Shown here: positions 16,704 to 36,973 of the stretch, one piece after another
Position numbering within the stretch: position 1 is the first letter of the stretch
Layout: each line of letters starts with the position of its first letter
From: an uncultured bacterium
Lineage (GTDB): Bacteria; Fidelibacterota; Marinisomatia; Marinisomatales; UBA1611
Direction: 5' to 3'
DNA: 62,867 nt
NCBI GenBank assembly: GCA_964561495.1
Contig: CAZLPW010000006.1
Coordinates: 1-62,867 of the forward strand
Position numbers and translations under genes: made by a program
The notes under the pieces: generated by a model
What the model was told of the DNA's origin: nothing
Seen by the model: only the letters and a program-made list of their open reading frames with translations
The model's database searches: none

Positions 16704-17633
16704 GTGCAACCTCAAACACTAAATAAGCAAGAAATATTCTCTCATATTTCTATGAAAGATGCTATCAAACAGATGGAATGGGCTTTCAAAAATATATATG
16801 AAAATTCTTCTATTATTCCAATTAGATCCAACATTGATTTTACCAAAACAGAATCCACTTTGATTATGCCTGGGTTTATCCCTAATAATCCCTTTTATAT
16901 TGTTAAAATAATTAACATAAGCTCAGTTCGAAAACCTTCAATTGTTGGGACTGTTAACGTCTTTGATTTTGAATCTGGTAAACTAATTGCTTTAATGGAT
17001 GCCGCTTCTATCACACAAATAAGAACTGGAGCTGCCTCTGGGTTGGCGACAAAATATTTGTCTCATAAAAATTCCAAATATTTGTGTGTTTTCGGTACTG
17101 GTGTGCAAGCTTTCTCTCAAATAGAAGCTATTCTAGAGGTTAGAGATATCTCTTCTATAGGTATAATTAGCACCAGTTATTCTAAAGGGTTCTCCTTTTC
17201 AAAAAAAATTGAAAAAAAATTCTCTATTGAGTGTCGCCCTCTTAAATGTTTTGATATACCACCTAATTCTATTATTTGCACGGCAACTACCTCACAACTA
17301 CCATTATTTTCAGATCCTTATGTTCCTAATGGTTGCCATATTAATGCTATCGGTTCCTACAAGCCAAGCTCAAGAGAAATTCCTTCAGATACTGTTGTTA
17401 GAGGGAAGATCGTTGTTGATGATCTGAAGTCCTGCTCTTTAGAGGCTGGTGACCTTTTAATTCCAGAAAAAGAAGGTAAGTGGTCCATGGGAAAAATTTA
17501 TTGTGAATTAGGTGAGTTGGTATTAGGATTCGCCTCTCCAAGAGAAAATAATAAAGAAATTACTCTATTTAAGTCTGTTGGCAATGTGATACAGGATCTT
17601 GCTATTGTTAACTATATTATGGATCAATTGTAA
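16704..17633 (+). CDS. Ornithine cyclodeaminase / mu-crystallin family NAD(P)H oxidoreductase (candidate delta1-pyrroline-2-carboxylate reductase)
   Basis: 309 aa from a GTG start. The conserved family N-terminus ([23 protein letters not shown]) precedes the first ATG, supporting GTG. Motifs [33 protein letters not shown]. Confidence 0.75.
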
Positions 17634-20513: not shown

Positions 20514-23500
20514 ATGGATAAAATTAAAATATTTAGAAGCCTTTCGGGTATTTTTTGGCTATGTATATGTCTCAATGCTCAGTCTTGGGTTGAAGTAAGT
20601 TCATCAGACCCAAAAGAATCTGCTTGGACTGTGAATTCTTTATCAAATAACACAACTCAGGTCTTTTTTGAGTTGTCTGGTTTTTACATGGTTGATAATA
20701 AGGATAATAAAAAAAGTATCAACTTTCCTGATAGTGCACCAATATTAGAATCTGGAGATCCAGACCTTCCGCAAGTCGCGAGATCAATAATTATTCCTGA
20801 TGTGGCAAACATGATTCTAGAGGTAATTAAATCGGAATTTATTGATATACCAGATGTTGATATTATTTCTTCCAAGGGCAACTTATACCGGAACACCCCT
20901 ATTTCTTCAGTCCCCTTTACTTACAGTGAAGTCTATGAAAAGGATCTTTTCTATCCAGAAAAGATTGCCTTTCTTAGAGACCCATACATTTTAGGTTTTG
21001 TGAGGGGGCAAACAATAGTTATCCGCCCTATTCAATATAATCCAATAAGTAATACTTTGCGTGTATATACTAAGATTGAATTAAAAATCAAAGAAGATGG
21101 AGTGAGTACAATTAATCCGCTAGTCCAGTATCCTTCAAAAAATATTATTAATCGCAGTCATCACCTTATTTACGAGGATCATTTTTTAAATTATTCTAGT
21201 ACTGCTTTGAGGTATGATCCTCTAGGTGAACTAGGTAAGATGCTTGTAATTTGTCATGGCCCCTTTATGGATGCAATGGCTCCCTTCATAGAATGGAAAA
21301 ATGTTAAAGGCATTCCTACTGAAATTATAGACGTTAATGATATTGGTAGTAGTTCTGATGAAATAAAAGAGTTTGTAGAAAATTATTATTACCAAGAGAG
21401 CTTGGCTTTTTTGCTTTTAGTGGGTGATATAGAGCATATCCCATCGCCACGTTTTTCACTTGGGAACGGATCCAATAGTCCAGCCGATCCTTCTTATGGT
21501 TTTCTAGCAGGTGATGATTTTTATCCTGAGGTTTTTGTAGGGCGGTTTTCTGCTGAAGATACGGTACATGTAAATACAATGGTATCTCGAACGATTGCTT
21601 ATGAAAGATATCCAGAACCTAATGGTGATTGGTTCAAAAAAGGTTCAGGTTTTGCTTCCAATCAAGGCCCTGGAGATGATGGGGAGTATGATGATGATCA
21701 CTTGGATATAATCAGAGAAAAACTTCTGGACTATAATTATATAGAGATTGATCAGATATATGACCCTACTGGGACTGTTTCTCAAGGCGAAAGCGCAATT
21801 AACGAAGGAAGGTCAATTATAAACTATACTGGGCACGGTTCAAATTCAGGTTGGGGCAATGGTTGTCCTATGAACAATACAGATGTAAATAGTTTAGTGA
21901 ATACAGATGGGAAATGGCCGTTTATATGGACCGTTGCCTGTGTTACTGGAGAGTTCCATGTAGGCACATGTTTTGCCGAAACTTGGCTGAGGGCAACACA
22001 TGACGATCAGCCTTCGGGGGCATTAGCAAAATTTGCATCTACAGTAAATGCCGCATGGAATCCTCCAATGGATGCTCAGGATGAAATGAATTCAATTTTT
22101 GTTGAGTCCTATGAAAATAATATAAAGCGTACTTTTGGAGGCCTTTCATTAAACGGTTGTATGGAAATGAATGATAACTATGGAACTGCTGGTTACCATG
22201 AAACTTTATTTTGGACAATCTTTGGTGATCCTTCTGTTGTTGTCCGTTCTGATATACCTCAGGAATTAAATATAAATTTTGAAAGTATATTGATCATTGG
22301 TGAGACTGAATATAGTCTTAATACAGGTGCTGGAGGGGCTAATGTTGCAATCTCTAGGAACGGGAACTTATTAGGTGGGGCTATTTCTGATGTTAGTGGA
22401 AATGCTTTAGTCGTTTTTGAAAATCCTATAGAAGTCCCAGGTGAGCTCCTGTTGGTTGTTACTGGATATAACTCGATTCCTTTTGAAGCATCAATAAATG
22501 CTATTGCACCTGAAGGCCCGTATGTTCTATTAGAAGAATTTAATGTTTATTCAAGTGGGTGGTCAGACGAAAACGATAATTTAAATTTTGGAGAGACAGG
22601 TTACATGATGGTAAATGTAAATAATTCAGGAAATGAGGATGCAAATGGTTTAATATTAAATCTATACAACCCAGATGGGTTAGTAAGTTTAGATGTTAGT
22701 TCATTTGAAATAGATTCGCTTCTATCTGGTCAAGATAGTTTGGTCGGACCTTTCCAATTTCAGATTGGAGTCAATATTGAAGATCAGCAGGAAATTAATT
22801 TTATCTTGGATGCTGTATCGGGTGAGCAGAGCTGGGAATATGAAATTGATATATCGGCGAATGCGCCAAACTTTGATATTGTTAGTTTAAGTTTTGCCAA
22901 TTTAAGTTTAGATCCTGGGGATTCGGACAGCCTTAACATTGTAATTGAAAATATTGGCCATGCTCCCCTTCATCTCCCAGATTTTAATTTAAATACTATT
23001 GACCCAAATTTTACAATAAATGGTGATTTTAATAGTAGTAATAATGATCCTTATTGGGATATTGAAAGTCAAATCAGTATAAATTGTCTTTTGACGGCAG
23101 AGGAAGAGGTGTTGCCTGGTTATACTGGCTTAATTAGTTTAAACATAGGATCGTTAAATAATTCATCCTATGGATTTTATTTGTCAATACCAGTTACAGT
23201 TGGTCTAATGGTTGAAGATTTTGAGGATGGTGACTTTAATTCATTTAATTGGTTGCATGATGGTCCATCTAATTGGTTTATTTCTAATGACGAAAGCTAT
23301 CAGGGTGAATTTGCAGCTAGGTCTGGAGAAATTGGGAATAGTGAATTTACAACCCTTAAAATAGAATTAAATCTTCCGTATAGTGGCGAGTTGAGTTTCA
23401 GAGCCAAAACATCCACCCAGTCAGGCGATATTTTGGCATTTTTTGTAAATGATGTGCAATATGGATCTGATTTGATGGGTGTTTCAGGTTGGGCTGAGTA

Positions 23501-23813
23501 TAGTTTTGATATAGATGCTGGTGAAAAGATATTTTCATGGGTTTATAAAAAAGATCAATTTGGAAGCGCTGGGGAAGATATGGTTATGTTAGATTGGATA
23601 ACATTCCCAGCTGGTGCGCGGCCCCATATTGATTATGGTGATCTTAATCAGGATAGCAATGTTAATGTTCTAGACATTATACTAACTGTTGCAAATATAA
23701 TTGGCCAGCTTGTTTTGGATGAAGACCAATTGTTAGCTGCAGATATGAATTCAGATGGTGCTGTCGATGTATTTGATGTGATGCTAATCGTTGATGCGGC
23801 ATTCCAGCAATAG
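20514..23813 (+). CDS. Secreted peptidase C25 (gingipain-like cysteine protease) with C-terminal beta-sandwich and dockerin-like module
   Basis: 1099 aa with a signal peptide. The catalytic block closely parallels my recollection of RgpB: INYTGHGSNSGWG (His), WTVACVTGEF (Cys), CFAETWLRA, AAWNPPMDAQDEMNSIF, NIKRTFGG, FWTIFGDPSVVVRS. The C-terminus GDLNQDSNVNVLDIILTV...ADMNSDGAVDVFDVMLIV is a duplicated Ca-binding dockerin repeat. Confidence 0.85.
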   Translation: MDKIKIFRSLSGIFWLCICLNAQSWVEVSSSDPKESAWTVNSLSNNTTQVFFELSGFYMVDNKDNKKSINFPDSAPILESGDPDLPQVARSIIIPDVANMILEVIKSEFIDIPDVDIISSKGNLYRNTPISSVPFTYSEVYEKDLFYPEKIAFLRDPYILGFVRGQTIVIRPIQYNPISNTLRVYTKIELKIKEDGVSTINPLVQYPSKNIINRSHHLIYEDHFLNYSSTALRYDPLGELGKMLVICHGPFMDAMAPFIEWKNVKGIPTEIIDVNDIGSSSDEIKEFVENYYYQESLAFLLLVGDIEHIPSPRFSLGNGSNSPADPSYGFLAGDDFYPEVFVGRFSAEDTVHVNTMVSRTIAYERYPEPNGDWFKKGSGFASNQGPGDDGEYDDDHLDIIREKLLDYNYIEIDQIYDPTGTVSQGESAINEGRSIINYTGHGSNSGWGNGCPMNNTDVNSLVNTDGKWPFIWTVACVTGEFHVGTCFAETWLRATHDDQPSGALAKFASTVNAAWNPPMDAQDEMNSIFVESYENNIKRTFGGLSLNGCMEMNDNYGTAGYHETLFWTIFGDPSVVVRSDIPQELNINFESILIIGETEYSLNTGAGGANVAISRNGNLLGGAISDVSGNALVVFENPIEVPGELLLVVTGYNSIPFEASINAIAPEGPYVLLEEFNVYSSGWSDENDNLNFGETGYMMVNVNNSGNEDANGLILNLYNPDGLVSLDVSSFEIDSLLSGQDSLVGPFQFQIGVNIEDQQEINFILDAVSGEQSWEYEIDISANAPNFDIVSLSFANLSLDPGDSDSLNIVIENIGHAPLHLPDFNLNTIDPNFTINGDFNSSNNDPYWDIESQISINCLLTAEEEVLPGYTGLISLNIGSLNNSSYGFYLSIPVTVGLMVEDFEDGDFNSFNWLHDGPSNWFISNDESYQGEFAARSGEIGNSEFTTLKIELNLPYSGELSFRAKTSTQSGDILAFFVNDVQYGSDLMGVSGWAEYSFDIDAGEKIFSWVYKKDQFGSAGEDMVMLDWITFPAGARPHIDYGDLNQDSNVNVLDIILTVANIIGQLVLDEDQLLAADMNSDGAVDVFDVMLIVDAAFQQ

Positions 23814-23837: not shown

Positions 23838-24000
23838 TAATAGTAGTTGTTTTATATATTTTATTTTATCCTGTTTAATTTTAATTATGATAACTACCAA
23901 TAATAAAAAAAATATTTAAAAATACTGGTAGTTGACTTGGTAGTTGTATATTTATATTTAAATTATATGGTTTTTTTAATAGTAGTTGTTTAGGTAGTTA
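23838..24000. promoter_or_regulatory. Array of six (T/A)GGTAGTT-type motifs (five direct, one inverted) upstream of the wbpE-like operon
   Basis: Copies at 23841-23849 (TAGTAGTTG), 23892-23899 (inverted AACTACCA), 23926-23934 and 23938-23946 (TGGTAGTTG x2, 12-bp phase), 23980-23988 (TAGTAGTTG) and 23992-24000 (AGGTAGTTA, 12-bp phase). In addition, the 15-mer TAATAGTAGTTGTTT occurs at both 23838-23852 and 23977-23991. Confidence 0.6.
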
Positions 24001-24029: not shown

Positions 24030-25145
24030 ATGCAGTTTATTGATCTAGGTGCTCAACAAAAAAGAATTCGCTCTAATATCCAAAAAAGGATATGCGATGT
24101 TTTGGATCATGGAAAGTATATTATGGGGCCAGAGGTTTATGAGTTAGAATCTAAATTGGCTGAATATGTTGGAAGAAAACACTGCGTTTCTTGTTCATCG
24201 GGTACTGATGCTCTTCTTATTCCATTGATGGCAAAAAATATTGGTGTTGGCGATGCTGTGATAACTACACCATTTACCTATATCGCTACCGCTGAAGTAA
24301 TTAAACTATTAGGTGCTACTCCTATTTTTGTTGATATTTATACTGATACATTCAATATTAATCCAGAAGGTATTCCTAATGCAATAAAACATGCTAAAGA
24401 ATTGGGTCTCAAAACAAAAGCCATAATTCCTGTTGATCTATTTGGCCTTCCTGCCAGATTCCGCTTAATAGAAGAGTATTCTTTGAAGTATGATCTTTTT
24501 TTAATTGAAGATGCTGCTCAGGGATTTGGTGGATCTATAAGAGGTAAAAAAGCTGGGTCTTTTGGCCATTGCTCATCCACATCTTTCTTTCCTGCTAAAC
24601 CCTTAGGCTGTTACGGGGATGGAGGGGCCATTTTTACTGATGATGATGAACTTGCAACCATAATGAGGTCAATTAGAGCCCATGGGGGAGGTGAAGATAA
24701 ATATGATAATGTTAGGCTTGGGATTAATGGGAGGCTTGATACTATACAAGCTGCCATTTTACTTGAGAAATTAACAATATTTGAAGAAGAGGTAAAACTG
24801 AGGAACCAAATAGCTTTATTTTATTTAAATAATTTAAAATCAAGTTTTAAAAATCCATTTGTACCTAACAAATATAAATCGTGTTGGGCTCAATTTTCAA
24901 TTGTTGCTAATTCTAAAGTTGAGAAAGAAGCATGTACTAATTTGTTAAATATAAATGGTATACCTACTATGAATTATTACCCAATCCCTTTGCATTTACA
25001 AAAGGTTTTTTCATACCTAGGTTATAAAAAAACTCAATTTACTATAACTGAAAAAATTTCTGATACTGTTTTTTCTATTCCTATGCATCCATATTTAAAA
25101 GAATCTGATCAAAGCATAATTGTGGATATAATAAATGAATTCTAA
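24030..25145 (+). CDS. wbpE: DegT/DnrJ/EryC1-family sugar aminotransferase (WbpE/WlbC-like UDP-2-acetamido-2-deoxy-3-oxo-glucuronate aminotransferase)
   Basis: 371 aa. The N-terminus MQFIDLGAQQKRI...HGKYIMGPEV.ELE..LAEYVG.KHCVSCSSGTDAL parallels WbpE. Operon context includes WbpB/D/A-like genes. Confidence 0.72.
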   Translation: MQFIDLGAQQKRIRSNIQKRICDVLDHGKYIMGPEVYELESKLAEYVGRKHCVSCSSGTDALLIPLMAKNIGVGDAVITTPFTYIATAEVIKLLGATPIFVDIYTDTFNINPEGIPNAIKHAKELGLKTKAIIPVDLFGLPARFRLIEEYSLKYDLFLIEDAAQGFGGSIRGKKAGSFGHCSSTSFFPAKPLGCYGDGGAIFTDDDELATIMRSIRAHGGGEDKYDNVRLGINGRLDTIQAAILLEKLTIFEEEVKLRNQIALFYLNNLKSSFKNPFVPNKYKSCWAQFSIVANSKVEKEACTNLLNINGIPTMNYYPIPLHLQKVFSYLGYKKTQFTITEKISDTVFSIPMHPYLKESDQSIIVDIINEF

Positions 25146-30252: not shown

Positions 30253-31305
30253 ATGGATAGTATATTGGTAACTGGTGGTTGTGGTTTTATAGGTTCAAAC
30301 TTTATTAAATATTATTTAGATAATTATCATAATATAAGTTTAGTCAATCTTGATAAACTGACATACGCTGGAAACTCTAGTAACCTTAAGGGAATCAAGG
30401 ATTTAAACTATACTTTTGTTAATGGAGATATCTGTGATTCTGACCTTGTTAAATCTTTATTTAAAAAATATAATTTCTCAACATTAGTCAATTTTGCTGC
30501 TGAAAGCCATGTAGATAGATCTATAGATGGCCCAGCTGATTTTATAAACACAAATGTTATTGGAACATTAAATTTACTAGAGCAAGCTAGGCATTTTTTC
30601 GATTCAAAAAAAAATCCTAAGAAATTTAAATTTATTCATATATCTACTGATGAGGTATATGGTTCTTTGGGTGAAAAAGGCAGCTTTTCAGAGGAGAGTC
30701 CTTTTCAGCCTAATTCGCCTTATTCTGCGTCGAAGGCTAGTTCTGATCATTTGGTGAAGTCATGGTATAAAACATTTGGGTTGCCTACTTTAATTACAAA
30801 TTGTTCTAATAATTATGGACCATACCAATTTCCTGAAAAACTAATTCCTCTTACGATTATTAATTGTATTGAGGACAATCCCTTGCCTGTATATGGTGAC
30901 GGAAGAAATATACGAGATTGGTTATATGTAGATGATCATTGTAAAGCAATTGATTTGATATCGAAAAATGGAGTTGTAGGTGAGACTTACAATATTGGTG
31001 GTTTGAGTGAGTTAACTAATATTGATGTTGTAAAAAAAATTTGTAGCATGTTAGATATTATATCTCCAAAGAAAGATGGAACTAGTTATTCAAAATTAAT
31101 AACTTTTGTACAAGATAGGCCTGGTCATGACAGGAGATATTCGGTCAATATAGATAAGATTCAAAAAAAAATGAGTTGGACTCCAGAAGAATCATTTGAT
31201 AGCGGAATAGAAAAGACAATTAAATGGTATTTAAATAATAAAAGTTGGTGGAAAAGTCTCAAGGGGAAATATAATCAACAAAGACTTGGGGTTATAAAAA
31301 AATGA
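30253..31305 (+). CDS. rfbB: dTDP-glucose 4,6-dehydratase
   Basis: Start at ATG 30253 ([17 protein letters not shown]). The track's 30187 start overlaps rfbC and adds a non-homologous leader. Motifs [25 protein letters not shown]. Confidence 0.92.
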
Positions 31306-32171
31306 AAGCAATAATTCTTGCAGGCGGTAGTGGAACTCGATTGTATCCAACTACCATCGTTGTTTCTAAGCAACTTATGCCGATATTTGATAAACCAATG
31401 ATTTATTATCCTTTATCTACTATTATGCTATCTGGGATAAGGGAAATTTTGATTATTTCATCGCCCTTTGATTTGCCGTTATATGAAAAATTATTAGGAT
31501 CGGGTGATGAATTGGGGCTAAGGATATCATACGCAATTCAGCCTAGTCCAGATGGATTGGCACAAGCTTTTTTAATCGGGGAAAGTTTTATCGGAAAAGA
31601 TAATGTCGCTCTTATTCTTGGGGATAATATTTTTTATGGTCATGGCATGGCTAAAACTCTCCAGTCTTGTGTTAATAAAGTTCAGTCTAAAAATACTGCT
31701 ACAGTTTTTGGGTATAATGTGAAAAATCCAGAAGATTATGGTGTTGTGACATTTGATGAAAAAAACAAGGTAACTGATATTGTTGAAAAGCCAGATCATC
31801 CAAAATCTAACTATGCAGTTACAGGGCTTTATTATTACCCAAATGATGTAGTGGAAATAGCAAAAAAAGTTAAACCTTCGAATCGAGGAGAGCTAGAAAT
31901 CACTTCGGTAAACAAAAGATTTTTAGATCAAGGTAGGCTAAATGTTGAAATTATGGGCCGTGGTTACGCTTGGTTAGATACTGGAACAATTGAGTCGATG
32001 TATGCTGCGTCAAGTTTTATACAAGCAATAGAGGGGAGGCAGGGTCTGAAGGTTGCATGCATTGAAGAAATTGCATTTAAAATGGGATATATTAACCGAT
32101 CAATGTTGAAAAAAAGTGCCTCAAAATATAATAATCAATATGGGCGCTATTTAAAGTCTTTGTTGGTATAA
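31302..32171 (+). CDS. rfbA: Glucose-1-phosphate thymidylyltransferase
   Basis: 289 aa. Motifs [54 protein letters not shown]. Confidence 0.93.
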
Positions 32172-32243: not shown

Positions 32244-32346
32244 TGGTAGCTATATGGTAGTTTAGAAAAAACATATAAATTCATTGATTTCAACTTAAAT
32301 TTCATTAGGATAATAATGGCGCAAATGGTAGTTTTAATGGTAGTTG
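32244..32346. promoter_or_regulatory. Second array of four TGGTAG(T/C)T motifs as two phased pairs, upstream of ORF 32374
   Basis: Copies at 32244 (TGGTAGCT) and 32255 (TGGTAGTTT), 11 bp apart. Further copies at 32326 (TGGTAGTTT) and 32338 (TGGTAGTTG), 12 bp apart. The last copy ends 28 nt before ATG 32374, against 30 nt in the first array. Confidence 0.55.
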
Positions 32347-32373: not shown

Positions 32374-33171
32374 ATGAGCAGTATATATAGAAAAAATAGA
32401 GATGGCTATTTTTATTATCAGACTTATGTATATAATCCTAAGTCAAAAAAGAAAGATAAGAGAATTTTTCATGCTTTGGCGACTAAAAGTGAATCTGAGG
32501 CAAAAATAAAACAGGCCAATTACGATAGAAAATACAAAAGAGCCACCAACAATAAACAGTCTAGCTTTTTTAAGGCTTGGCTTCAAGCAAATAAAAAAAC
32601 CATTCTAACAGTAGCTTTTTCTTCTATATGTACTTTTTTAATTACCCAGAATTTTCAAAAAACACAAGAAAGTTTTCCAAATGCTAAAACCAATTATCAA
32701 TTAGAATCTGTAATAATTGATAAAATTGACGAGGACTACTCTCAAGTAAAAAAAGAAGAACTTCAAAATAAAAAAATACAAATAATTGATAAAAATAAAA
32801 TAGGGGAACAAAAAGAACGAAAACAAAAAATAGTTAAAAATTTGACTATTCCCCAATATAAGATTATGCGAAAAGAACAGCTTTCGGAAGCCTTTGACCA
32901 ATGGAAAATTTTTGTTGTCGTTGAAACTATTCTTGATTCTAAAAGTTTAAGAAACATTTGTAATATGATTTCAAAAGATTATTCTAATTATCAAAACCTA
33001 GTGATTTGTATTTATCTTAACAATGATGTAGGTATGAAAATTGCATTAGGAAGGAAAAATAATTTCAGTCTTGAACAAGAAAAAGATTCATGGTTGGCTA
33101 TGTATACCTATAACTCTGTAGAAGGTGCCTTTTTTGATGATAATCCTGGCCAATATATATGGACCAATTAA
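32374..33171 (+). CDS. Hypothetical single-pass membrane protein with N-terminal integrase-arm/AP2-like putative DNA-binding domain
   Basis: 265 aa. N-terminus IYRKNRDGYFYYQTYVYNPKSKKKDKRIFHALATKSESEAKIKQANYD resembles the lambda Int arm-binding fold (LYIRNNGYYCYRDP...AITEAIQANIE). One TM helix (ILTVAFSSICTFLITQNF), then about 170 aa of unknown domain. No recombinase catalytic domain. Confidence 0.4.
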   Translation: MSSIYRKNRDGYFYYQTYVYNPKSKKKDKRIFHALATKSESEAKIKQANYDRKYKRATNNKQSSFFKAWLQANKKTILTVAFSSICTFLITQNFQKTQESFPNAKTNYQLESVIIDKIDEDYSQVKKEELQNKKIQIIDKNKIGEQKERKQKIVKNLTIPQYKIMRKEQLSEAFDQWKIFVVVETILDSKSLRNICNMISKDYSNYQNLVICIYLNNDVGMKIALGRKNNFSLEQEKDSWLAMYTYNSVEGAFFDDNPGQYIWTN

Positions 33172-33197: not shown

Positions 33198-35882
33198 ATG
33201 TTAAAAAAAATAATTTTGGCAAAATTTTTTATAATTTGTCTAATTAAATCACAAAGCCCTGAACAAATCAAGGCAATAGAAAAAGTTGTCAAAAATAAAG
33301 GAATGTCAAAACAGCAGGTTATAAATGCAGCTAAAACTCAGGGTTATACTGAGGACCAAATTAAAGCTATTGAAACAAAATATAATTCTAGAGATAAATC
33401 TGATAATAATGATGCAATGAAAAATAGTTTTGATGATGATTTAGAAGTTGTGGAATTAGAAGACCCAAATTCCCCTCAAGAAAAAGAAGGAAATTTAGAT
33501 GAAGAAGAAAAATTGGAAATTGAAACTAAAATACAAGAAGCCAGAGAAGCCCCTAGTTACTTTGGTTATGATATTTTCCAACGAGATCCTTCTGCATTTC
33601 AATCTTCATCTGTTGGTGCCGTTGAACCTGATTATCTAATCGGACCAGGTGATGAAATAATTGTAATGCTTTGGGGTGAAACTCAGTTCAGGCAAGTTCT
33701 TACAGTAAATCGAGAAGGTTTTATTTTTATTCCTGAAGTTGGTCAGGTTTTTGTTAATGGACTAAACTTGAATCTACTTGAATCCAAATTATTTCGTGTT
33801 ATGTCTCAGTCTTATGCGAGTTTAAACCCACGCGGTGGAAAATCATCTACATTTCTTGATGTTAGTCTTGGAAACTTAAGACCCCTTCGTATTCAAGTTT
33901 TAGGTGAGGTGGCTCAGCCAGGAGCATATACTGTAAATCCTTCTGCAACTCTTTTTTCTGCTTTGTATTATTTTAATGGTCCTACTACGTTAGGTTCACT
34001 TAGAGATATAAGGCTTATCCGTGGAGGGAAAGAAATTAGCCGAATAGATTTTTATGATTATTTATTTACGGGGAAAAAACCTAAAGATCAAAAATTACAG
34101 CTTGATGATGTTATTTTTATACCAAAAAGAATGAAAACGGTCACGATTCAAGGTGAAATAAATAGGCCAGGAATATATGAGCTGAAGCCCGATGAAACAT
34201 TAAATGATATAATTAAAATGGCTGGAGATTTAAAAATTACGGCTTATATGAATAGAATTCAGATTGATCGTATTGTACCTTTTGATAAGCGAGAAGAGTT
34301 GGGCTTAGAGAGGGTACTTTCAGATATCAATTTAGGAAGTGTAATTAAAAACAATAAAAAATATTATTTGCAAGATGCAGATCACATCCAGATTTTTTCA
34401 ATTTTAGATTCTAGGTTAAATACTGTGCAAATTTCTGGTGCGGTTACAAGGCCAGGTAGCTACGAATTAAAAGATTCATTATCTTTAAATCAATTAATCG
34501 AAAAAGCAGATGGCTTGCTAGGTGATGCTTATTTAAAGCGTGTTGATATTATACGAATCATGCCAGATCTTAAAGAACAATTAATCAAATTAAATCTTGA
34601 AAAAGTAATTTTAGATGATCAAGAGCATAATATTCAATTACAAAATTTAGATAGAGTAAGAATTTTCAGTTTAACAGAGATGGTGTCTCGGAACTCTGTT
34701 GAGATCAGAGGTCATGTTAAAAATCCTGGCAGATATCCTTTGCAAGGCGGAATGCGCATAAGAGATATTATATTTAAATCTGGAGGTTTTGTTGATGGAG
34801 AGTTTTTAAAGAGAACCTATTTAGGTAGAGCAGATTTGATCCGATATGATGAAAATAATATAACTCAAAATATCACCTCTTTTAATTTGGGAGATTTGAT
34901 AAATAATAATAATTATGATTCAAATGTTCTGCTTCTTCCAGGCGATATAGTTAGGATATATCCAAAAACATTATTTAAATCAGCATATGAGGCTACTATT
35001 TTAGGATCAATAAAAGAACCAGGCAGTTTCACTGTGAAGAATAAAATGACTCTTAGAGATTTGATTTTGGAAGCTGGTGGTTTTGACAAGGATGTTTATA
35101 GGTATAGAATTGAAATTTCTAGGATTGATCCAAAAAATAAATCTATTGATGTCTATTCAACCCTTTCTGAAATATTTATTGATAAAGATTTTTTTGAATC
35201 ATTTGCAAGTAGCGAGGATCATGACAATATATCCAAACTTAATCCAATAATAATGCCATATGATATAGTTTTTGTAAGACCAGATCCTAATTTTTCGATG
35301 CAAAGAACTATTTCAATTGAAGGAATGGTAATGTATCCTGGAGTTTATCCACTGCTTAGTCCAAATGAAACAATAAGGGACGTAGTTATAAGGGCAGGGG
35401 GCCCCAATAGTAACGCATACCTTCCCGCATCAAAATTTATAAGAAGTGGTATTGAAGTAAAATTATCTTTAGAAAATATTTATAATGGTAAAGACGATTT
35501 AAATTCAAATTTTAAGGTTGCAAATGGAGATCGGATTATAATTGCAGGTCGCACCAAAATCTTTTCTATCTTTGGAGAAGTCAATAGTCCAGGCCGATAC
35601 CCGCATAATAGAAATAAAAGAGTCAATGACGCTATCAGATTATCTGGAGGATTTACTCCAAATGCAGACAAAAAAAATATTTTTATTACTTTTCCTAATG
35701 GAGATTCTAAAAAATATAACAGATTCTTAAATAATCCTAGGCTAATGGATAGTTCTACTATAACCGTTGGAAGAAAGCCTGATGAAGAGCCTTTTGATCG
35801 TACGGAATATGCCAAAGAACTAACTGCAATTGTTGCTAATATAGCACAAGCAATTTCATTGGTGATTCTTGCAAAAAACTAA
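33198..35882 (+). CDS. wza: Polysaccharide export protein (Wza-like Poly_export domain plus multiple SLBB repeats)
   Basis: 894 aa with a signal peptide. Motif YLIGPGDEIIVMLWGE, and repeated V.I.G.V..PG.Y.L soluble-ligand-binding beta-grasp units throughout. Confidence 0.8.
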   Translation: MLKKIILAKFFIICLIKSQSPEQIKAIEKVVKNKGMSKQQVINAAKTQGYTEDQIKAIETKYNSRDKSDNNDAMKNSFDDDLEVVELEDPNSPQEKEGNLDEEEKLEIETKIQEAREAPSYFGYDIFQRDPSAFQSSSVGAVEPDYLIGPGDEIIVMLWGETQFRQVLTVNREGFIFIPEVGQVFVNGLNLNLLESKLFRVMSQSYASLNPRGGKSSTFLDVSLGNLRPLRIQVLGEVAQPGAYTVNPSATLFSALYYFNGPTTLGSLRDIRLIRGGKEISRIDFYDYLFTGKKPKDQKLQLDDVIFIPKRMKTVTIQGEINRPGIYELKPDETLNDIIKMAGDLKITAYMNRIQIDRIVPFDKREELGLERVLSDINLGSVIKNNKKYYLQDADHIQIFSILDSRLNTVQISGAVTRPGSYELKDSLSLNQLIEKADGLLGDAYLKRVDIIRIMPDLKEQLIKLNLEKVILDDQEHNIQLQNLDRVRIFSLTEMVSRNSVEIRGHVKNPGRYPLQGGMRIRDIIFKSGGFVDGEFLKRTYLGRADLIRYDENNITQNITSFNLGDLINNNNYDSNVLLLPGDIVRIYPKTLFKSAYEATILGSIKEPGSFTVKNKMTLRDLILEAGGFDKDVYRYRIEISRIDPKNKSIDVYSTLSEIFIDKDFFESFASSEDHDNISKLNPIIMPYDIVFVRPDPNFSMQRTISIEGMVMYPGVYPLLSPNETIRDVVIRAGGPNSNAYLPASKFIRSGIEVKLSLENIYNGKDDLNSNFKVANGDRIIIAGRTKIFSIFGEVNSPGRYPHNRNKRVNDAIRLSGGFTPNADKKNIFITFPNGDSKKYNRFLNNPRLMDSSTITVGRKPDEEPFDRTEYAKELTAIVANIAQAISLVILAKN

Positions 35883-35902: not shown

Positions 35903-36973
35903 ATGTCTAAAATAAAAGAAAAAATAGAACCTCTTAGCGAAAAACCATCCAAAGGAGATATCCTTTCTTTTTCAGAGATTATACTTACACTAGCAAAAAA
36001 TTTCAAAATAATTATTTTTCTACCTTCTGTTTTATGTGTTCTGCAAATTATATACGTTCAGTTTTTAGCTGCCCCAGTTTTTATTTCCCAAGCAAAAATA
36101 TTATCTTCCTCTAATAGTGGTGTTTCTCAGGCCGCTGGTATTGCTGCTCAATTTGGAATTTCAATACCGCAAATATCAGATGAACAGGAGTGGGTTTATC
36201 CAGAAATAGTGAAAAGCAGAAAAATTTCTAAACTAATGTTAAAAAGGAGGTTTGATACGAATGAATTTGGTTCTCAAAAATTATTACTACAAATTTTGAC
36301 ATACGGAAATAGGCAGCCTGAATTTGGTATCGATACTTTGATCAAGTTTGGTGTGGGAAAGATGCAATCGATGATTGAGATTAAAAAAAATGGAAATTTT
36401 TACGATCTATCTATAAAAGCCAAAGAACCAATTTTTGCGCGAGACTTAGCAACTGCGTTAATTGAAGAACTTGATGCTCATCAAAAAAAGTATAATAAAT
36501 CTAAAACCAGTGAGGCTAGATTATTTATTGAAGAAAGGATTGATGAAACTCGTAAAGAACTAGAATCAGCAGAAGAAAAGTTGAAAAACTTCAGAGATAG
36601 GAATAGGAGAATTGAAAATTCCCCATCATTGCAATTAGAGGAAACTCGCTTGGTTAGAGAGGCCTCTGTTTTAACTGGAGTATACACTACTCTCAAGCAA
36701 CAGTTAGAAACCACAAAAATAGAGGAGGTGAAAGAATCTAATTATGTTATTGTCCTAGACCCACCAGAAGCTCCATTAGATAGAGCTTATCCTAGAAAAA
36801 AAATGATGGTAATTTTTACAGGTATAATTGGTCTATTTCTGGGTGTTGCTTTTGCTTTAATTAGGGGTTATTTAGAGGATAGTAGTTTGCATGATAAAAA
36901 TATTGTCAGAAAAGCAAAAAAAATACTTTTTAATAATATTTTTGATCTTACACCAAATTTTTTGAAAAGATAG
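35903..36973 (+). CDS. wzz: Polysaccharide chain-length determinant (Wzz/PCP family, no kinase domain)
   Basis: 356 aa. TM helices near both termini (IIIFLPSVLCVLQIIYV; MMVIFTGIIGLFLGVAFALI) flank a coiled-coil periplasmic region. It follows wza. Confidence 0.72.
   Translation: MSKIKEKIEPLSEKPSKGDILSFSEIILTLAKNFKIIIFLPSVLCVLQIIYVQFLAAPVFISQAKILSSSNSGVSQAAGIAAQFGISIPQISDEQEWVYPEIVKSRKISKLMLKRRFDTNEFGSQKLLLQILTYGNRQPEFGIDTLIKFGVGKMQSMIEIKKNGNFYDLSIKAKEPIFARDLATALIEELDAHQKKYNKSKTSEARLFIEERIDETRKELESAEEKLKNFRDRNRRIENSPSLQLEETRLVREASVLTGVYTTLKQQLETTKIEEVKESNYVIVLDPPEAPLDRAYPRKKMMVIFTGIIGLFLGVAFALIRGYLEDSSLHDKNIVRKAKKILFNNIFDLTPNFLKR

What the first reader, a model, noticed from the sequence alone, without database searches (positions are those of the whole stretch)
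32244..32346. The same TGGTAGTT pairs recur with the same geometry upstream of the wza/wzz operon leader gene
Seen: the pairs are TGGTAGCT/TGGTAGTTT (32244 and 32255, 11 bp apart) and TGGTAGTTT/TGGTAGTTG (32326 and 32338, 12 bp apart). The promoter-proximal copy ends 28 nt before ATG 32374, against 30 nt in the first array.

Two independent intergenic regions 8 kb apart share motif, pairing, phase and distance to the start codon. This argues for a shared cis-regulatory device coordinating two sub-operons of the glycan locus.

Alternative: some copies (TAGTTTTA) resemble the Bacteroidota -7 promoter box TAnnTTTG, so reiterated promoters are possible.
Basis: seen in the sequence. Interest (0 to 1): 0.65.

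Follow-up and report, generated by a model that had tools for sequence, protein, structure and literature searches.

The report
Paired regulator boxes before glycan-export operon
Two pairs of a 7-base box (GGTAGTT, repeated 11-12 bases apart) in front of the polysaccharide-export operon of an uncultured marine bacterium (Marinimicrobia/SAR406) are real, are conserved across the phylum at fixed positions around a promoter, and are most likely docking sites for a dedicated gene regulator, possibly the odd membrane-anchored protein encoded right behind them.

Summary
Observation confirmed. GGTAGCT/GGTAGTT (32245/32256, 11 bp apart) and GGTAGTT/GGTAGTT (32327/32339, 12 bp apart) lie on the + strand in the 202-nt gap before ORF 32374-33171, which precedes wza and wzz.

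Such pairs occur only five times in the 62.9-kb window. Across 446 kb of related Marinimicrobia loci I found 60 pairs, 57 of them in the 12% of DNA without ORFs. Shuffled sequence gave about 2.6.

Every homologous leader gene with upstream DNA has a pair in front. In 16 of 19 lineages, plus 9 of 10 metagenome replicates, the second repeat supplies the TTG of a -35 element and a TAnnTT -10 element starts 20-22 nt later. The pair therefore sits at about -52 to -34, upstream of the transcription start.

In the window's sub-clade both pairs are footprint-conserved (74-78% invariant columns, against 17-38% around them). A conserved -10 block lies between them. The distal pair is then upstream of the promoter and the proximal pair falls at about +7 to +25.

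Best reading: double-stranded-DNA sites of one regulator. The candidate binder is the 265-aa membrane-anchored leader protein, and that link is not shown. An ops/RfaH-like reading and a reiterated -7-box reading do not fit the geometry. No transcription start or binding data were available.

The parts
32245..32262 (+). Distal pair GGTAGCT-atat-GGTAGTT, 11-bp period. It lies 43-47 nt upstream of the conserved -10 block, at roughly -76 to -56 of the predicted transcription start.
   Evidence: It is conserved at -129 to -133 in L027, L028 and L029, including the C variant in the first half. 78% of its columns are invariant.
32306..32314 (+). Predicted -10 block TAGGATAAT (read as TAGGAT or GATAAT). 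The predicted start is near 32318-32321, giving a 5'UTR of about 53 nt. This is an inference.
   Evidence: The block is conserved in the window, L028 and L027. L029 has TATATT and L007 has TAGGTT at the same alignment place. In four lineages it lies exactly 12 nt before the proximal pair.
32327..32345 (+). Proximal pair GGTAGTT-ttaat-GGTAGTT(G), 12-bp period, at about +7 to +25 of the predicted start. This is an operator-like position.
   Evidence: It is conserved at -47 to -49 in four lineages, with 74% invariant columns. No TAnnTT element follows at the canonical 20-22 nt offset.
32374..33171 (+). Leader gene P0001 (265 aa), the candidate binder. It has a highly conserved N-terminal beta3-alpha domain (residues 1-58), a transmembrane helix (74-97), a disordered linker, and a C-terminal alpha/beta domain with two invariant cysteines.
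   Evidence: Sub-threshold PF20172 match in 19 of 20 members.
33198..35882 (+). wza-type polysaccharide export protein (Poly_export plus multiple SLBB domains).
35903..36973 (+). wzz-type chain-length determinant (Wzz plus GNVR).
23927..23945 (+). First array, distal pair. It abuts TTGTAT, and TATGGT follows 20 nt later, so it has the promoter-fused geometry.
23981..23999 (+). First array, proximal pair, starting 9 nt after the predicted -10. It would sit at about +4 to +22, and ends 30 nt before the DegT ATG at 24030.
23842..23848 (+). First array, single box AGTAGTT, conserved in L005 and L007.
23892..23898 (-). First array, single reverse-strand box within ATGATAACTACC, which is identical in the window, L005 and L007.
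17285..17302 (-). A perfect third pair (11-bp period) antisense inside an ornithine-cyclodeaminase-family ORF, 355 nt before the first epimerase/GT2 genes. Its status is unknown.

Best explanation
The GGTAGTT pairs are double-stranded-DNA binding sites for two tandem, head-to-tail copies of one dedicated transcription regulator. This regulator would control a small glycan regulon in Marinimicrobia: the leader-wza-wzz export operon plus nucleotide-sugar operons.

In the common, probably ancestral design, the pair overlaps the -35 element of a sigma-70/FCB-type promoter (TTG, 16-18 nt spacer, (TG)TAnnTT). It then sits at about -52 to -34. That is the geometry of pho boxes and of the TcpP site, and it suits direct contact with RNA polymerase.

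In the window's sub-clade each array has two pairs:
- An upstream pair. In array 2 it is displaced about two helical turns further upstream, to roughly -76 to -56.
- A second pair just downstream of the predicted start, at about +4/+7 to +22/+25. I read this as an operator that limits or shuts off transcription when the regulator is abundant.

The most likely binder is the protein encoded immediately downstream, P0001. It has a basic, tyrosine-rich N-terminal beta3-alpha domain facing the cytoplasm, one transmembrane helix and a periplasmic domain. It would be a ToxR-like membrane-tethered one-component regulator that autoregulates and couples an envelope signal to glycan synthesis and export.

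Shown: the motif, its pairing, its non-random distribution, its conservation, its fixed distance to -35/-10-like elements, and its linkage to the P0001 gene. Inferred: the transcription starts, activation versus repression, and the identity of the binder.
For: 1. Non-random and intergenic: 60 pairs in 446 kb, 57 of them in non-ORF DNA, against about 2.6 in shuffles. The spacing peak is sharp at 11-12 bp.

2. A pair lies upstream of every P0001-family gene that has upstream DNA.

3. Promoter geometry: TAnn[AT]T starts 20-22 nt after the second repeat in 16 of 19 non-redundant lineages, and TTG follows in 14 of 19. By reading the flanks printed, the same holds in 9 of 10 independent metagenome loci.

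4. In an unbiased exact-pattern scan of all metagenomes (120 hits), 10 hits lie 53-104 nt upstream of, and co-oriented with, a P0001-family ATG. Two more hits have a P0001 gene further away, and two are the known DegT and UDP-sugar-dehydrogenase sites. The rest are satellites, coding repeats or chance matches without glycan genes.

5. Phylogenetic footprint in the window's sub-clade: 74-78% invariant columns in the pairs against 17-38% around them. There is an exact 12-nt gap between the -10 block and the proximal pair in four lineages.

6. Conserved reverse-strand copies fit a duplex-binding protein and not a strand-specific signal. These are ATGATAACTACC in the DegT array and reverse pairs at about -200 in L003, L012, L013, L015, L016 and L017.

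7. The N-terminal 58 residues of P0001 are by far its most conserved part (72% mean column identity, 21 invariant residues), which mirrors the invariant GTAG core. AlphaFold gives a confident three-strand sheet plus helix (pLDDT 88), followed by a transmembrane helix. The N-terminal domain has net charge +11 in the window protein.

8. PF20172 matches 19 of 20 members, with a best E-value of 3e-5, below the family threshold. Several phage integrases are among the top weak fold matches.
Against: - There is no binding, transcription-start or expression evidence. No RNA run holds the window, and the metatranscriptome contigs on L019 are too fragmentary to place a start.
- The DNA-binding nature of the N-terminal domain is not established. 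There is no Pfam hit above threshold and no PDB sequence hit. Foldseek found nothing at E <= 0.001 in PDB or BFVD.
- The net charge of the domain is near zero in several lineages.
An unlinked soluble regulator, and the true size of the regulon, therefore remain open.
- In window array 2 the distal pair is not at the canonical distance from the -10 element, and the -10 assignment rests on conservation in only 4-5 sequences.
- Boxes that end 4-10 nt before an ATG (L026, L007 DegT) cannot act as class-II activator sites, so the regulator would need a second mode such as repression.
Confidence: 0.7

Rival explanations
1. ops/JUMPstart-like elements. The GGTAG-containing boxes would act on the non-template strand of transcribing RNA polymerase to pause it and load an RfaH/UpxY-type NusG paralogue. 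That factor would then suppress polarity through the long same-strand glycan locus and could help ribosome recruitment at the nearby start codons.
For: - The core is shared with E. coli ops: ops12 is GGCGGTAGCGTG and ops9 is GCGGTAGTC (PMC5995543).
- ops elements lie in the leaders of polysaccharide operons (PMC6391919).
- All four copies of this array are on the coding strand.
- No terminator-like site was found between the upstream rfb genes and the array, so read-through is possible.
- The proximal pairs of the window's sub-clade, and the boxes 4-30 nt before other start codons, would be transcribed.
Against: - The most conserved pair overlaps the -35 element and lies upstream of the predicted start in 16 of 19 plus 9 of 10 lineages, so it is not transcribed from that promoter.
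- A strict 11-12 bp pairing and conserved reverse-strand copies are not expected of ops.
- The GC-rich 5' half of ops (GGCGG) is absent.
- No NusG/KOW-domain gene appears in the gene tables of 14 neighbourhoods or among the small ORFs of the window.
- Rfam found nothing in the window.
Confidence: 0.07
2. The boxes are genuine regulator sites, but the binder is an unlinked soluble transcription factor or a specialised sigma factor. P0001 would then be a regulated target, for example an export accessory protein, and not the regulator.
For: The DNA-binding assignment for the P0001 N-terminal domain is not significant by any tool. Membrane tethering is unusual for a factor that must reach several promoters 8 kb or more apart. 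The genome could not be searched for other candidates.
Against: No other regulator gene is consistently linked in the neighbourhoods inspected. The P0001 N-terminal domain is as invariant as the box across the phylum. Every P0001 gene has boxes in front, which is typical of autoregulated factors. The -10 element looks like the housekeeping type (TGnTAnnTT), and the pair-to--10 spacing does not fit ECF-type promoters.
Confidence: 0.2
3. The boxes are reiterated core-promoter elements (Bacteroidota-type -7 TAnnTTTG or -33 boxes) or chance AT-rich repeats with no dedicated factor.
For: The second repeat plus G supplies the TTG of the -35/-33 element in most lineages. Marinimicrobia belong to the FCB group, and the -10 consensus here (TAnnTT) resembles the first six positions of the Bacteroidota -7 box.
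Against: - The repeat read as TAGTT(A/G)nn fails the TTTG half of the -7 box.
- The upstream repeat of each pair, the proximal pairs with no -10 element behind them, and the reverse copies have no role as core-promoter elements.
- The invariant GGTAG part lies outside any known sigma-70 or sigma-AB contact motif.
- Pairs are restricted to a few glycan-operon leaders, not to promoters in general.
Confidence: 0.03

Closest known systems
ToxR / TcpP / CadC membrane-bound one-component regulators and their direct-repeat sites (from my own knowledge: TcpP binds a direct repeat at about -53 to -38 of the toxT promoter)
   Same: The predicted topology is the same: cytoplasmic N-terminal DNA-binding domain, single transmembrane helix, periplasmic domain. 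The sites are tandem direct repeats about one helical turn apart that overlap or abut the -35 element. The regulator gene is linked to envelope functions.
   Different: The N-terminal domain is not an OmpR-type winged helix. It has no Trans_reg_C hit and a three-strand sheet plus helix fold. Binding is untested. Here the regulator gene heads the export operon itself.
pho boxes bound by PhoB (OmpR/PhoB family), from my own knowledge
   Same: Two 7-bp direct repeats with 4-5 bp spacers (11-12 bp period) are placed where the -35 element sits, at a fixed distance from the -10 element.
   Different: A good TTG -35 element is retained and overlaps the box. No response regulator or histidine kinase is linked. 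The window's lineage adds a second pair downstream of the start.
ops / JUMPstart elements with RfaH (ops12 GGCGGTAGCGTG; PMC5995543, PMC6391919) and Bacteroides UpxY
   Same: They share the GGTAG(T) core, the coding-strand orientation, and a position in front of polysaccharide operons.
   Different: The canonical pair lies upstream of the transcription start. The boxes are obligately paired and have conserved reverse-strand copies. No NusG paralogue is linked, and the GGCGG half is absent.
Arm-type sites and N-terminal arm-binding domains of tyrosine integrases (lambda Int, Tn916 Int, Mx8 Int)
   Same: A small beta-sheet-plus-helix N-terminal domain, and arrays of tandem direct repeats in both orientations. 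There are weak fold matches to phage integrases, including Mx8 Int, and a sub-threshold PF20172 match.
   Different: There is no recombinase catalytic domain, and no att-like core or sign of inversion or excision. The similarity is not significant.

Membership tests
Direct-repeat class-II activator boxes (pho-box / TcpP-site type) | Tandem direct repeats with a period of about one helical turn | tested here: met
   Spacing is 12 bp in 41 pairs and 11 bp in 19 of the 60 pairs. Other spacings are rare.
Direct-repeat class-II activator boxes (pho-box / TcpP-site type) | Fixed position overlapping or abutting the -35 element, at a constant distance from the -10 element | tested here: met
   TAnn[AT]T starts 20-22 nt after the second repeat in 16 of 19 lineages and in 9 of 10 metagenome replicates. 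This is not met by the distal pair of window array 2, which is 43 nt from the -10 block, or by the proximal pairs.
Direct-repeat class-II activator boxes (pho-box / TcpP-site type) | Bound by a winged-helix (OmpR/PhoB-type) protein that contacts RNA polymerase | tested here: not met
   There is no Trans_reg_C or other helix-turn-helix hit in P0001, and its fold is beta3-alpha. Binding itself cannot be tested with these tools.
ToxR-like membrane-tethered one-component regulators | Cytoplasmic N-terminal domain, single transmembrane helix, periplasmic C-terminal domain | tested here: met
   AlphaFold predicts a helix at 74-97 between a basic N-terminal domain and a C-terminal alpha/beta domain with invariant cysteines. 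This is a prediction only.
ToxR-like membrane-tethered one-component regulators | Sequence-specific DNA binding by the cytoplasmic domain | not testable with these tools
   It is inferred from linkage and co-conservation only.
ops / RfaH (NusG-paralogue) recruitment elements | Conserved GGTAG core on the non-template strand | tested here: met
   GGTAGTT compared with ops12 GGCGGTAGCGTG and ops9 GCGGTAGTC.
ops / RfaH (NusG-paralogue) recruitment elements | Located in the transcribed leader, downstream of the promoter | tested here: not met
   The canonical pair overlaps the -35 element and is therefore upstream of +1. Only the sub-clade-specific proximal pairs would be transcribed. Starts are predicted, not mapped.
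ops / RfaH (NusG-paralogue) recruitment elements | A specialised NusG paralogue in the genome | not testable with these tools
None was found in neighbourhood gene tables or among the small window ORFs.
Integrase arm-type site / arm-binding domain | Significant sequence or fold similarity of the binder to arm-binding domains | tested here: inconclusive
   PF20172 (DUF6538) matches 19 of 20 members, best E 3e-5, below the gathering score. Foldseek on BFVD gave Mx8 integrase at probability 0.97 but E 0.22. PDB gave nothing. That DUF6538 occurs in integrases is my recollection and was not verified (one search found no paper).
Integrase arm-type site / arm-binding domain | Linked tyrosine-recombinase catalytic domain and core recombination sites | tested here: not met
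   P0001 has no Phage_integrase domain. The orientation of the flanked segments is constant in all loci.
Bacteroidota -7 promoter box TAnnTTTG | The repeat matches TAnnTTTG | tested here: not met
   In TAGTT(A/G)nn, position 6 is A or G in the matrix of 60 pairs.

The most novel reading that the evidence does not exclude
P0001 and its roughly 400 relatives would be a previously unrecognised class of membrane-tethered one-component regulators. Their DNA-binding module would be a small integrase-arm-like beta-sheet domain rather than a helix-turn-helix. They would bind paired GGTAGTT boxes phylum-wide, at the -35 element to activate and just after +1 to repress. This would form an autoregulatory switch that reports the state of the envelope or export machinery to the promoters of surface-glycan synthesis in one of the ocean's most abundant uncultured phyla.
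Probability: 0.4. Interest if true: 0.72.

Novelty: new variant of a known kind. Interest (0 to 1): 0.55.

Why it matters
Nothing is known about transcription regulation in Marinimicrobia (SAR406), an abundant, almost entirely uncultured ocean phylum. The boxes give a precise and testable cis-element: a consensus, a geometry and a small target set. They also give one obvious candidate factor, which can be tested in vitro with synthetic DNA and a 60-residue domain, without cultivating the organism.

If the candidate holds, it adds a new DNA-binding module to the short list of membrane-bound transcription factors. It would also show how these cells coordinate nucleotide-sugar synthesis with polysaccharide export. 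The alignment anchored on the boxes also yields a promoter consensus for these loci (TTG, 16-18 nt, (TG)TAnnTT).

Tried and rejected
- **RNA evidence.** No RNA run holds the window. Four metatranscriptomes hold parts of L019, but only as short Logan contigs with gaps over the leader gene's 5' half, so no start could be read.
- **Known RNA families.** Rfam found none in the whole window.
- **Fold and sequence identification of P0001.**
  - Pfam and NCBIfam gave no hit.
  - A PDB profile search gave nothing.
  - Foldseek against PDB, with the full model and the N-terminal domain, found nothing at E <= 0.001.
  - Foldseek against BFVD gave only weak matches.
  - The profile search of 1.84 billion representatives returned only the same family among the 150 listed hits. 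About 39 weaker hits were not shown.
- **Plain duplication of one intergenic region.** Rejected. Outside the boxes the two arrays align poorly.
- **Proximal pair as a promoter for a leaderless mRNA.** Rejected. No conserved TAnnTT element lies 20-22 nt behind it in any of the four sub-clade sequences.
- **Generic promoter and terminator scan.** It gave chance-level hits only.
- **Literature.** No paper holds DUF6538, and none of the eight listed papers holding GGTAGTT or Marinimicrobia holds both. PMC179143 (JUMPstart) is not held.
- **Helical phasing between distal and proximal pairs.** Distances of 44, 54, 72, 82 and 99 bp are not consistently in phase, so I did not argue for a DNA loop.

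Full report
**1. The observation**

- TGGTAGCT at 32244 and TGGTAGTT at 32255, 11 bp apart.
- TGGTAGTT at 32326 and 32338, 12 bp apart.

They lie in the 202-nt gap between an rfbA-type gene (31302-32171) and ORF 32374-33171. That ORF is followed by wza (33198-35882) and wzz (35903-36973). The first array, before the DegT/WbpE-type gene at 24030, has pairs at 23927/23939 and 23981/23993.

In the whole 62.9-kb window, GTAG[TC]T pairs no more than 40 bp apart occur five times. These are the four pairs above and one minus-strand pair inside an ORF at 17285-17302. Outside the boxes the two gaps do not align well, so this is not a duplicated intergenic region.

**2. Organism and relatives**

The leader protein (P0001, 265 aa) has no Pfam or NCBIfam family. 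It has 392 relatives in metagenomes, named only as Marinimicrobia where named at all. I fetched 28 loci through these relatives. All 15 genome-derived loci are Marinimicrobia/Neomarinimicrobiota MAGs, apart from one contig filed under an archaeal bin.

The window's own genome could therefore not be scanned.

**3. The boxes are a conserved, paired, intergenic element**

I defined a pair as two GGTAGTT half-sites 11-12 bp apart, each with at most one mismatch and at most two mismatches in total.
- Every locus with DNA upstream of the leader gene has at least one pair in front of it.
- Non-redundant loci total 446,314 bp and hold 60 pairs. Of these, 57 lie in the 12% of DNA without an ORF of at least 100 aa. 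Shuffles gave 0-10 pairs, mean about 2.6.
- Start-to-start spacing peaks at 12 bp (41 pairs) and 11 bp (19 pairs).
- The consensus is GGTAGTT-A-t-n-a-n-GGTAGTT-G, with GTAG invariant.
- Other genes with boxes in front are the DegT operon (L005, L007), GalE-like genes (L014, L018) and UDP-sugar dehydrogenases (L023, L026). All are glycan genes.

I also ran an unbiased exact-pattern scan of all metagenome contigs with GGTAGTTANNNNGGTAGTTG. It returned 120 stretches, which break down as follows:
- 12 hold a P0001-family gene. In 10 of these the pair is co-oriented and 53-104 nt upstream of the ATG.
- 2 more are the DegT and UDP-sugar-dehydrogenase sites already seen.
- The rest are satellites, coding repeats, or chance hits with no glycan genes nearby.

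**4. Position relative to promoter elements**

I aligned 19 non-redundant leader promoters on the end of the second repeat.
- A TAnn[AT]T hexamer starts 20-22 nt later in 16 of them. At most other offsets the count is 0-2, with a minor cluster at offsets 3-4.
- It is usually preceded by TG, as in TGTAAATT, TGTACATT and TGTATATT.
- The last TT of the repeat plus the next base forms TTG in 14 of 19, as in TTGACA, TTGCCA and TTGTCA.
- Reading the flanks printed, 9 of the 10 metagenome replicates show the same arrangement.

This is a sigma-70/FCB-type promoter with a 16-18 nt spacer. The pair therefore occupies about -52 to -34 and is not transcribed from that promoter. The predicted start is about 52-54 nt before the ATG.

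**5. The array under review**

The window belongs to a sub-clade with L028 (84% leader-protein identity), L027 (70%) and L029 (48%). L007 and L005 are more distant members.
- In the four closest sequences the distal pair starts at -129 to -133. It always has the GGTAGCT variant in its first half and an 11-bp period.
- The proximal pair starts at -47 to -49 with a 12-bp period.
- 78% and 74% of the pair columns are invariant in all four sequences, against 17-38% in the other segments.
- Between the pairs there is one more conserved block, TAGGATAAT at window 32306-32314. L029 has TATATT there and L007 has TAGGTT.
- This block lies exactly 12 nt before the proximal pair in four lineages. In L007 the block is the -10 element at the canonical 21 nt behind its upstream pair.

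I therefore read 32306-32314 as the -10 element and place the start near 32318-32321. On this reading:
- The distal pair sits about 22 bp (two helical turns) further upstream than in the canonical design, at roughly -76 to -56.
- The proximal pair sits at about +7 to +25.

The first array gives the same picture. Its distal pair abuts TTGTAT, TATGGT follows 20 nt later, and the proximal pair starts 9 nt after that.

Both predicted 5'UTRs are about 52-53 nt. These starts are inferred and not mapped.

**6. The candidate factor**

The first 58 residues of P0001 are its most conserved part, with 72% mean column identity and 21 invariant residues. AlphaFold gives the following:
- Three strands and a helix in the N-terminal domain (pLDDT 88 for the domain alone).
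- A transmembrane helix at 74-97.
- A disordered linker.
- A C-terminal alpha/beta domain with two invariant cysteines.

The domain is rich in Lys, Arg and Tyr. Its net charge is +11 in the window protein but near 0 in some lineages.

Identification as a DNA-binding fold remained weak:
- PF20172 (DUF6538) matches 19 of 20 members, but below threshold.
- Foldseek found nothing significant in PDB.
- In BFVD it found only weak matches, which include phage integrases such as Mx8 Int.
- PDB sequence profiles gave nothing.

The link between protein and boxes rests on three things: strict adjacency, co-conservation, and the absence of any other linked regulator.

**7. Rivals**

*ops/RfaH-like.* The boxes share GGTAG(T) with the ops element of RfaH-controlled polysaccharide operons (ops12 GGCGGTAGCGTG, ops9 GCGGTAGTC; PMC5995543). 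I took this reading seriously. It does not fit for four reasons:
- The canonical pair lies upstream of the start.
- The pairing is strict.
- Reverse-strand copies are conserved. ATGATAACTACC is identical in three lineages, and reverse pairs lie at about -200 in six loci.
- No NusG-like gene is linked.

It cannot be excluded for the transcribed proximal pairs.

*Reiterated -7 boxes.* This reading fails on sequence.

*An unlinked regulator.* This remains a real alternative. I give it about 0.2.

**8. Comparison and verdict**

The element works like pho boxes or the TcpP site: tandem repeats fused to the -35 element. In this lineage it has an added operator-like pair after +1. The candidate factor has ToxR-like topology but a different, integrase-arm-like module.

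I found no paper describing this motif or the protein family. No paper holds DUF6538, and none of the eight listed papers holding GGTAGTT or Marinimicrobia holds both.

Two earlier reports of this scan, on the first array and on the leader protein, reached the same general reading. I re-derived their claims independently.
- the promoter geometry,
- the dual-site architecture of the window's sub-clade,
- the explicit test of the ops-like rival,
- the metagenome-wide pattern control.

I rate this a new variant of a known kind, of moderate interest. Binding and transcription starts are still untested.

Noticed in passing
window 17285-17302 (- strand): A perfect GGTAGTT pair (11-bp period, followed by GCC) lies antisense inside an ornithine-cyclodeaminase/mu-crystallin-family ORF (16704-17633). 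It is 355 nt upstream of the first epimerase and GT2 genes of the glycan region. No TAnnTT element follows at the canonical distance. It could be a relic, an antisense promoter or a boundary site.
   Followed up: partly
L003 9534-9810; also L012, L013, L015, L016, L017, L020: Many lineages have extra + pairs at about -370 and -470 and a reverse pair at about -200. These flank a roughly 170-bp segment with conserved blocks: ATCGTCGG right after the -370 pair, and TTGATGG-AAAAATGAT-TGTGGTTGCTG. This could be a small transcript, a leader peptide or a looped nucleoprotein region. The window's proximal pair (GGTAGTTGCCCTAGAT) resembles the -370 pair of these loci.
   Followed up: no
L002 5040-5098; L012, L016 and others (5'UTR of the leader gene): The predicted 53-nt 5'UTR of canonical leader genes holds a small conserved hairpin (for example AGGAActtaTTTCCT) followed by AAAAAATAACA. 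This may be a translational or attenuation element. It is absent from the window's sub-clade.
   Followed up: no
L146 5900-5960; L059: In some lineages the -10 element ends only 7 nt (L146) or 17 nt (L059) before the leader ATG. This implies a leaderless or nearly leaderless mRNA.
   Followed up: no
L022 and L023 (same MAG, SP3097): One genome carries two paralogous leader-wza loci, both with the same boxes at about -95 to -98. This argues for a shared factor or cross-talk.
   Followed up: no
L026 (PAOZ01000046.1): A contig filed under a 'Methanobacteriota archaeon' MAG carries a typical Marinimicrobia leader-wza locus with boxes. It is probably a mis-binned contig.
   Followed up: no
Promoters aligned: The -10 consensus of these Marinimicrobia promoters is (TG)TAnnTT, with T rather than A at position 5, and the -35 element is TTG. 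This lies between the E. coli -10 element and the Bacteroidota -7 box TAnnTTTG.
   Followed up: partly
window 32374-33171, residues 160-265: The C-terminal domain of the leader protein is a confident alpha/beta fold with invariant C196 and C212 and an NxVEGxYFDDxP motif. It has no significant structural neighbour. The best hit is a T6SS immunity protein at E 0.1.
   Followed up: partly
window 20514-23813: A C25 (gingipain-type) peptidase ends in a dockerin-type module directly upstream of the first box array. The same synteny is seen in L005 and L007.
   Followed up: no
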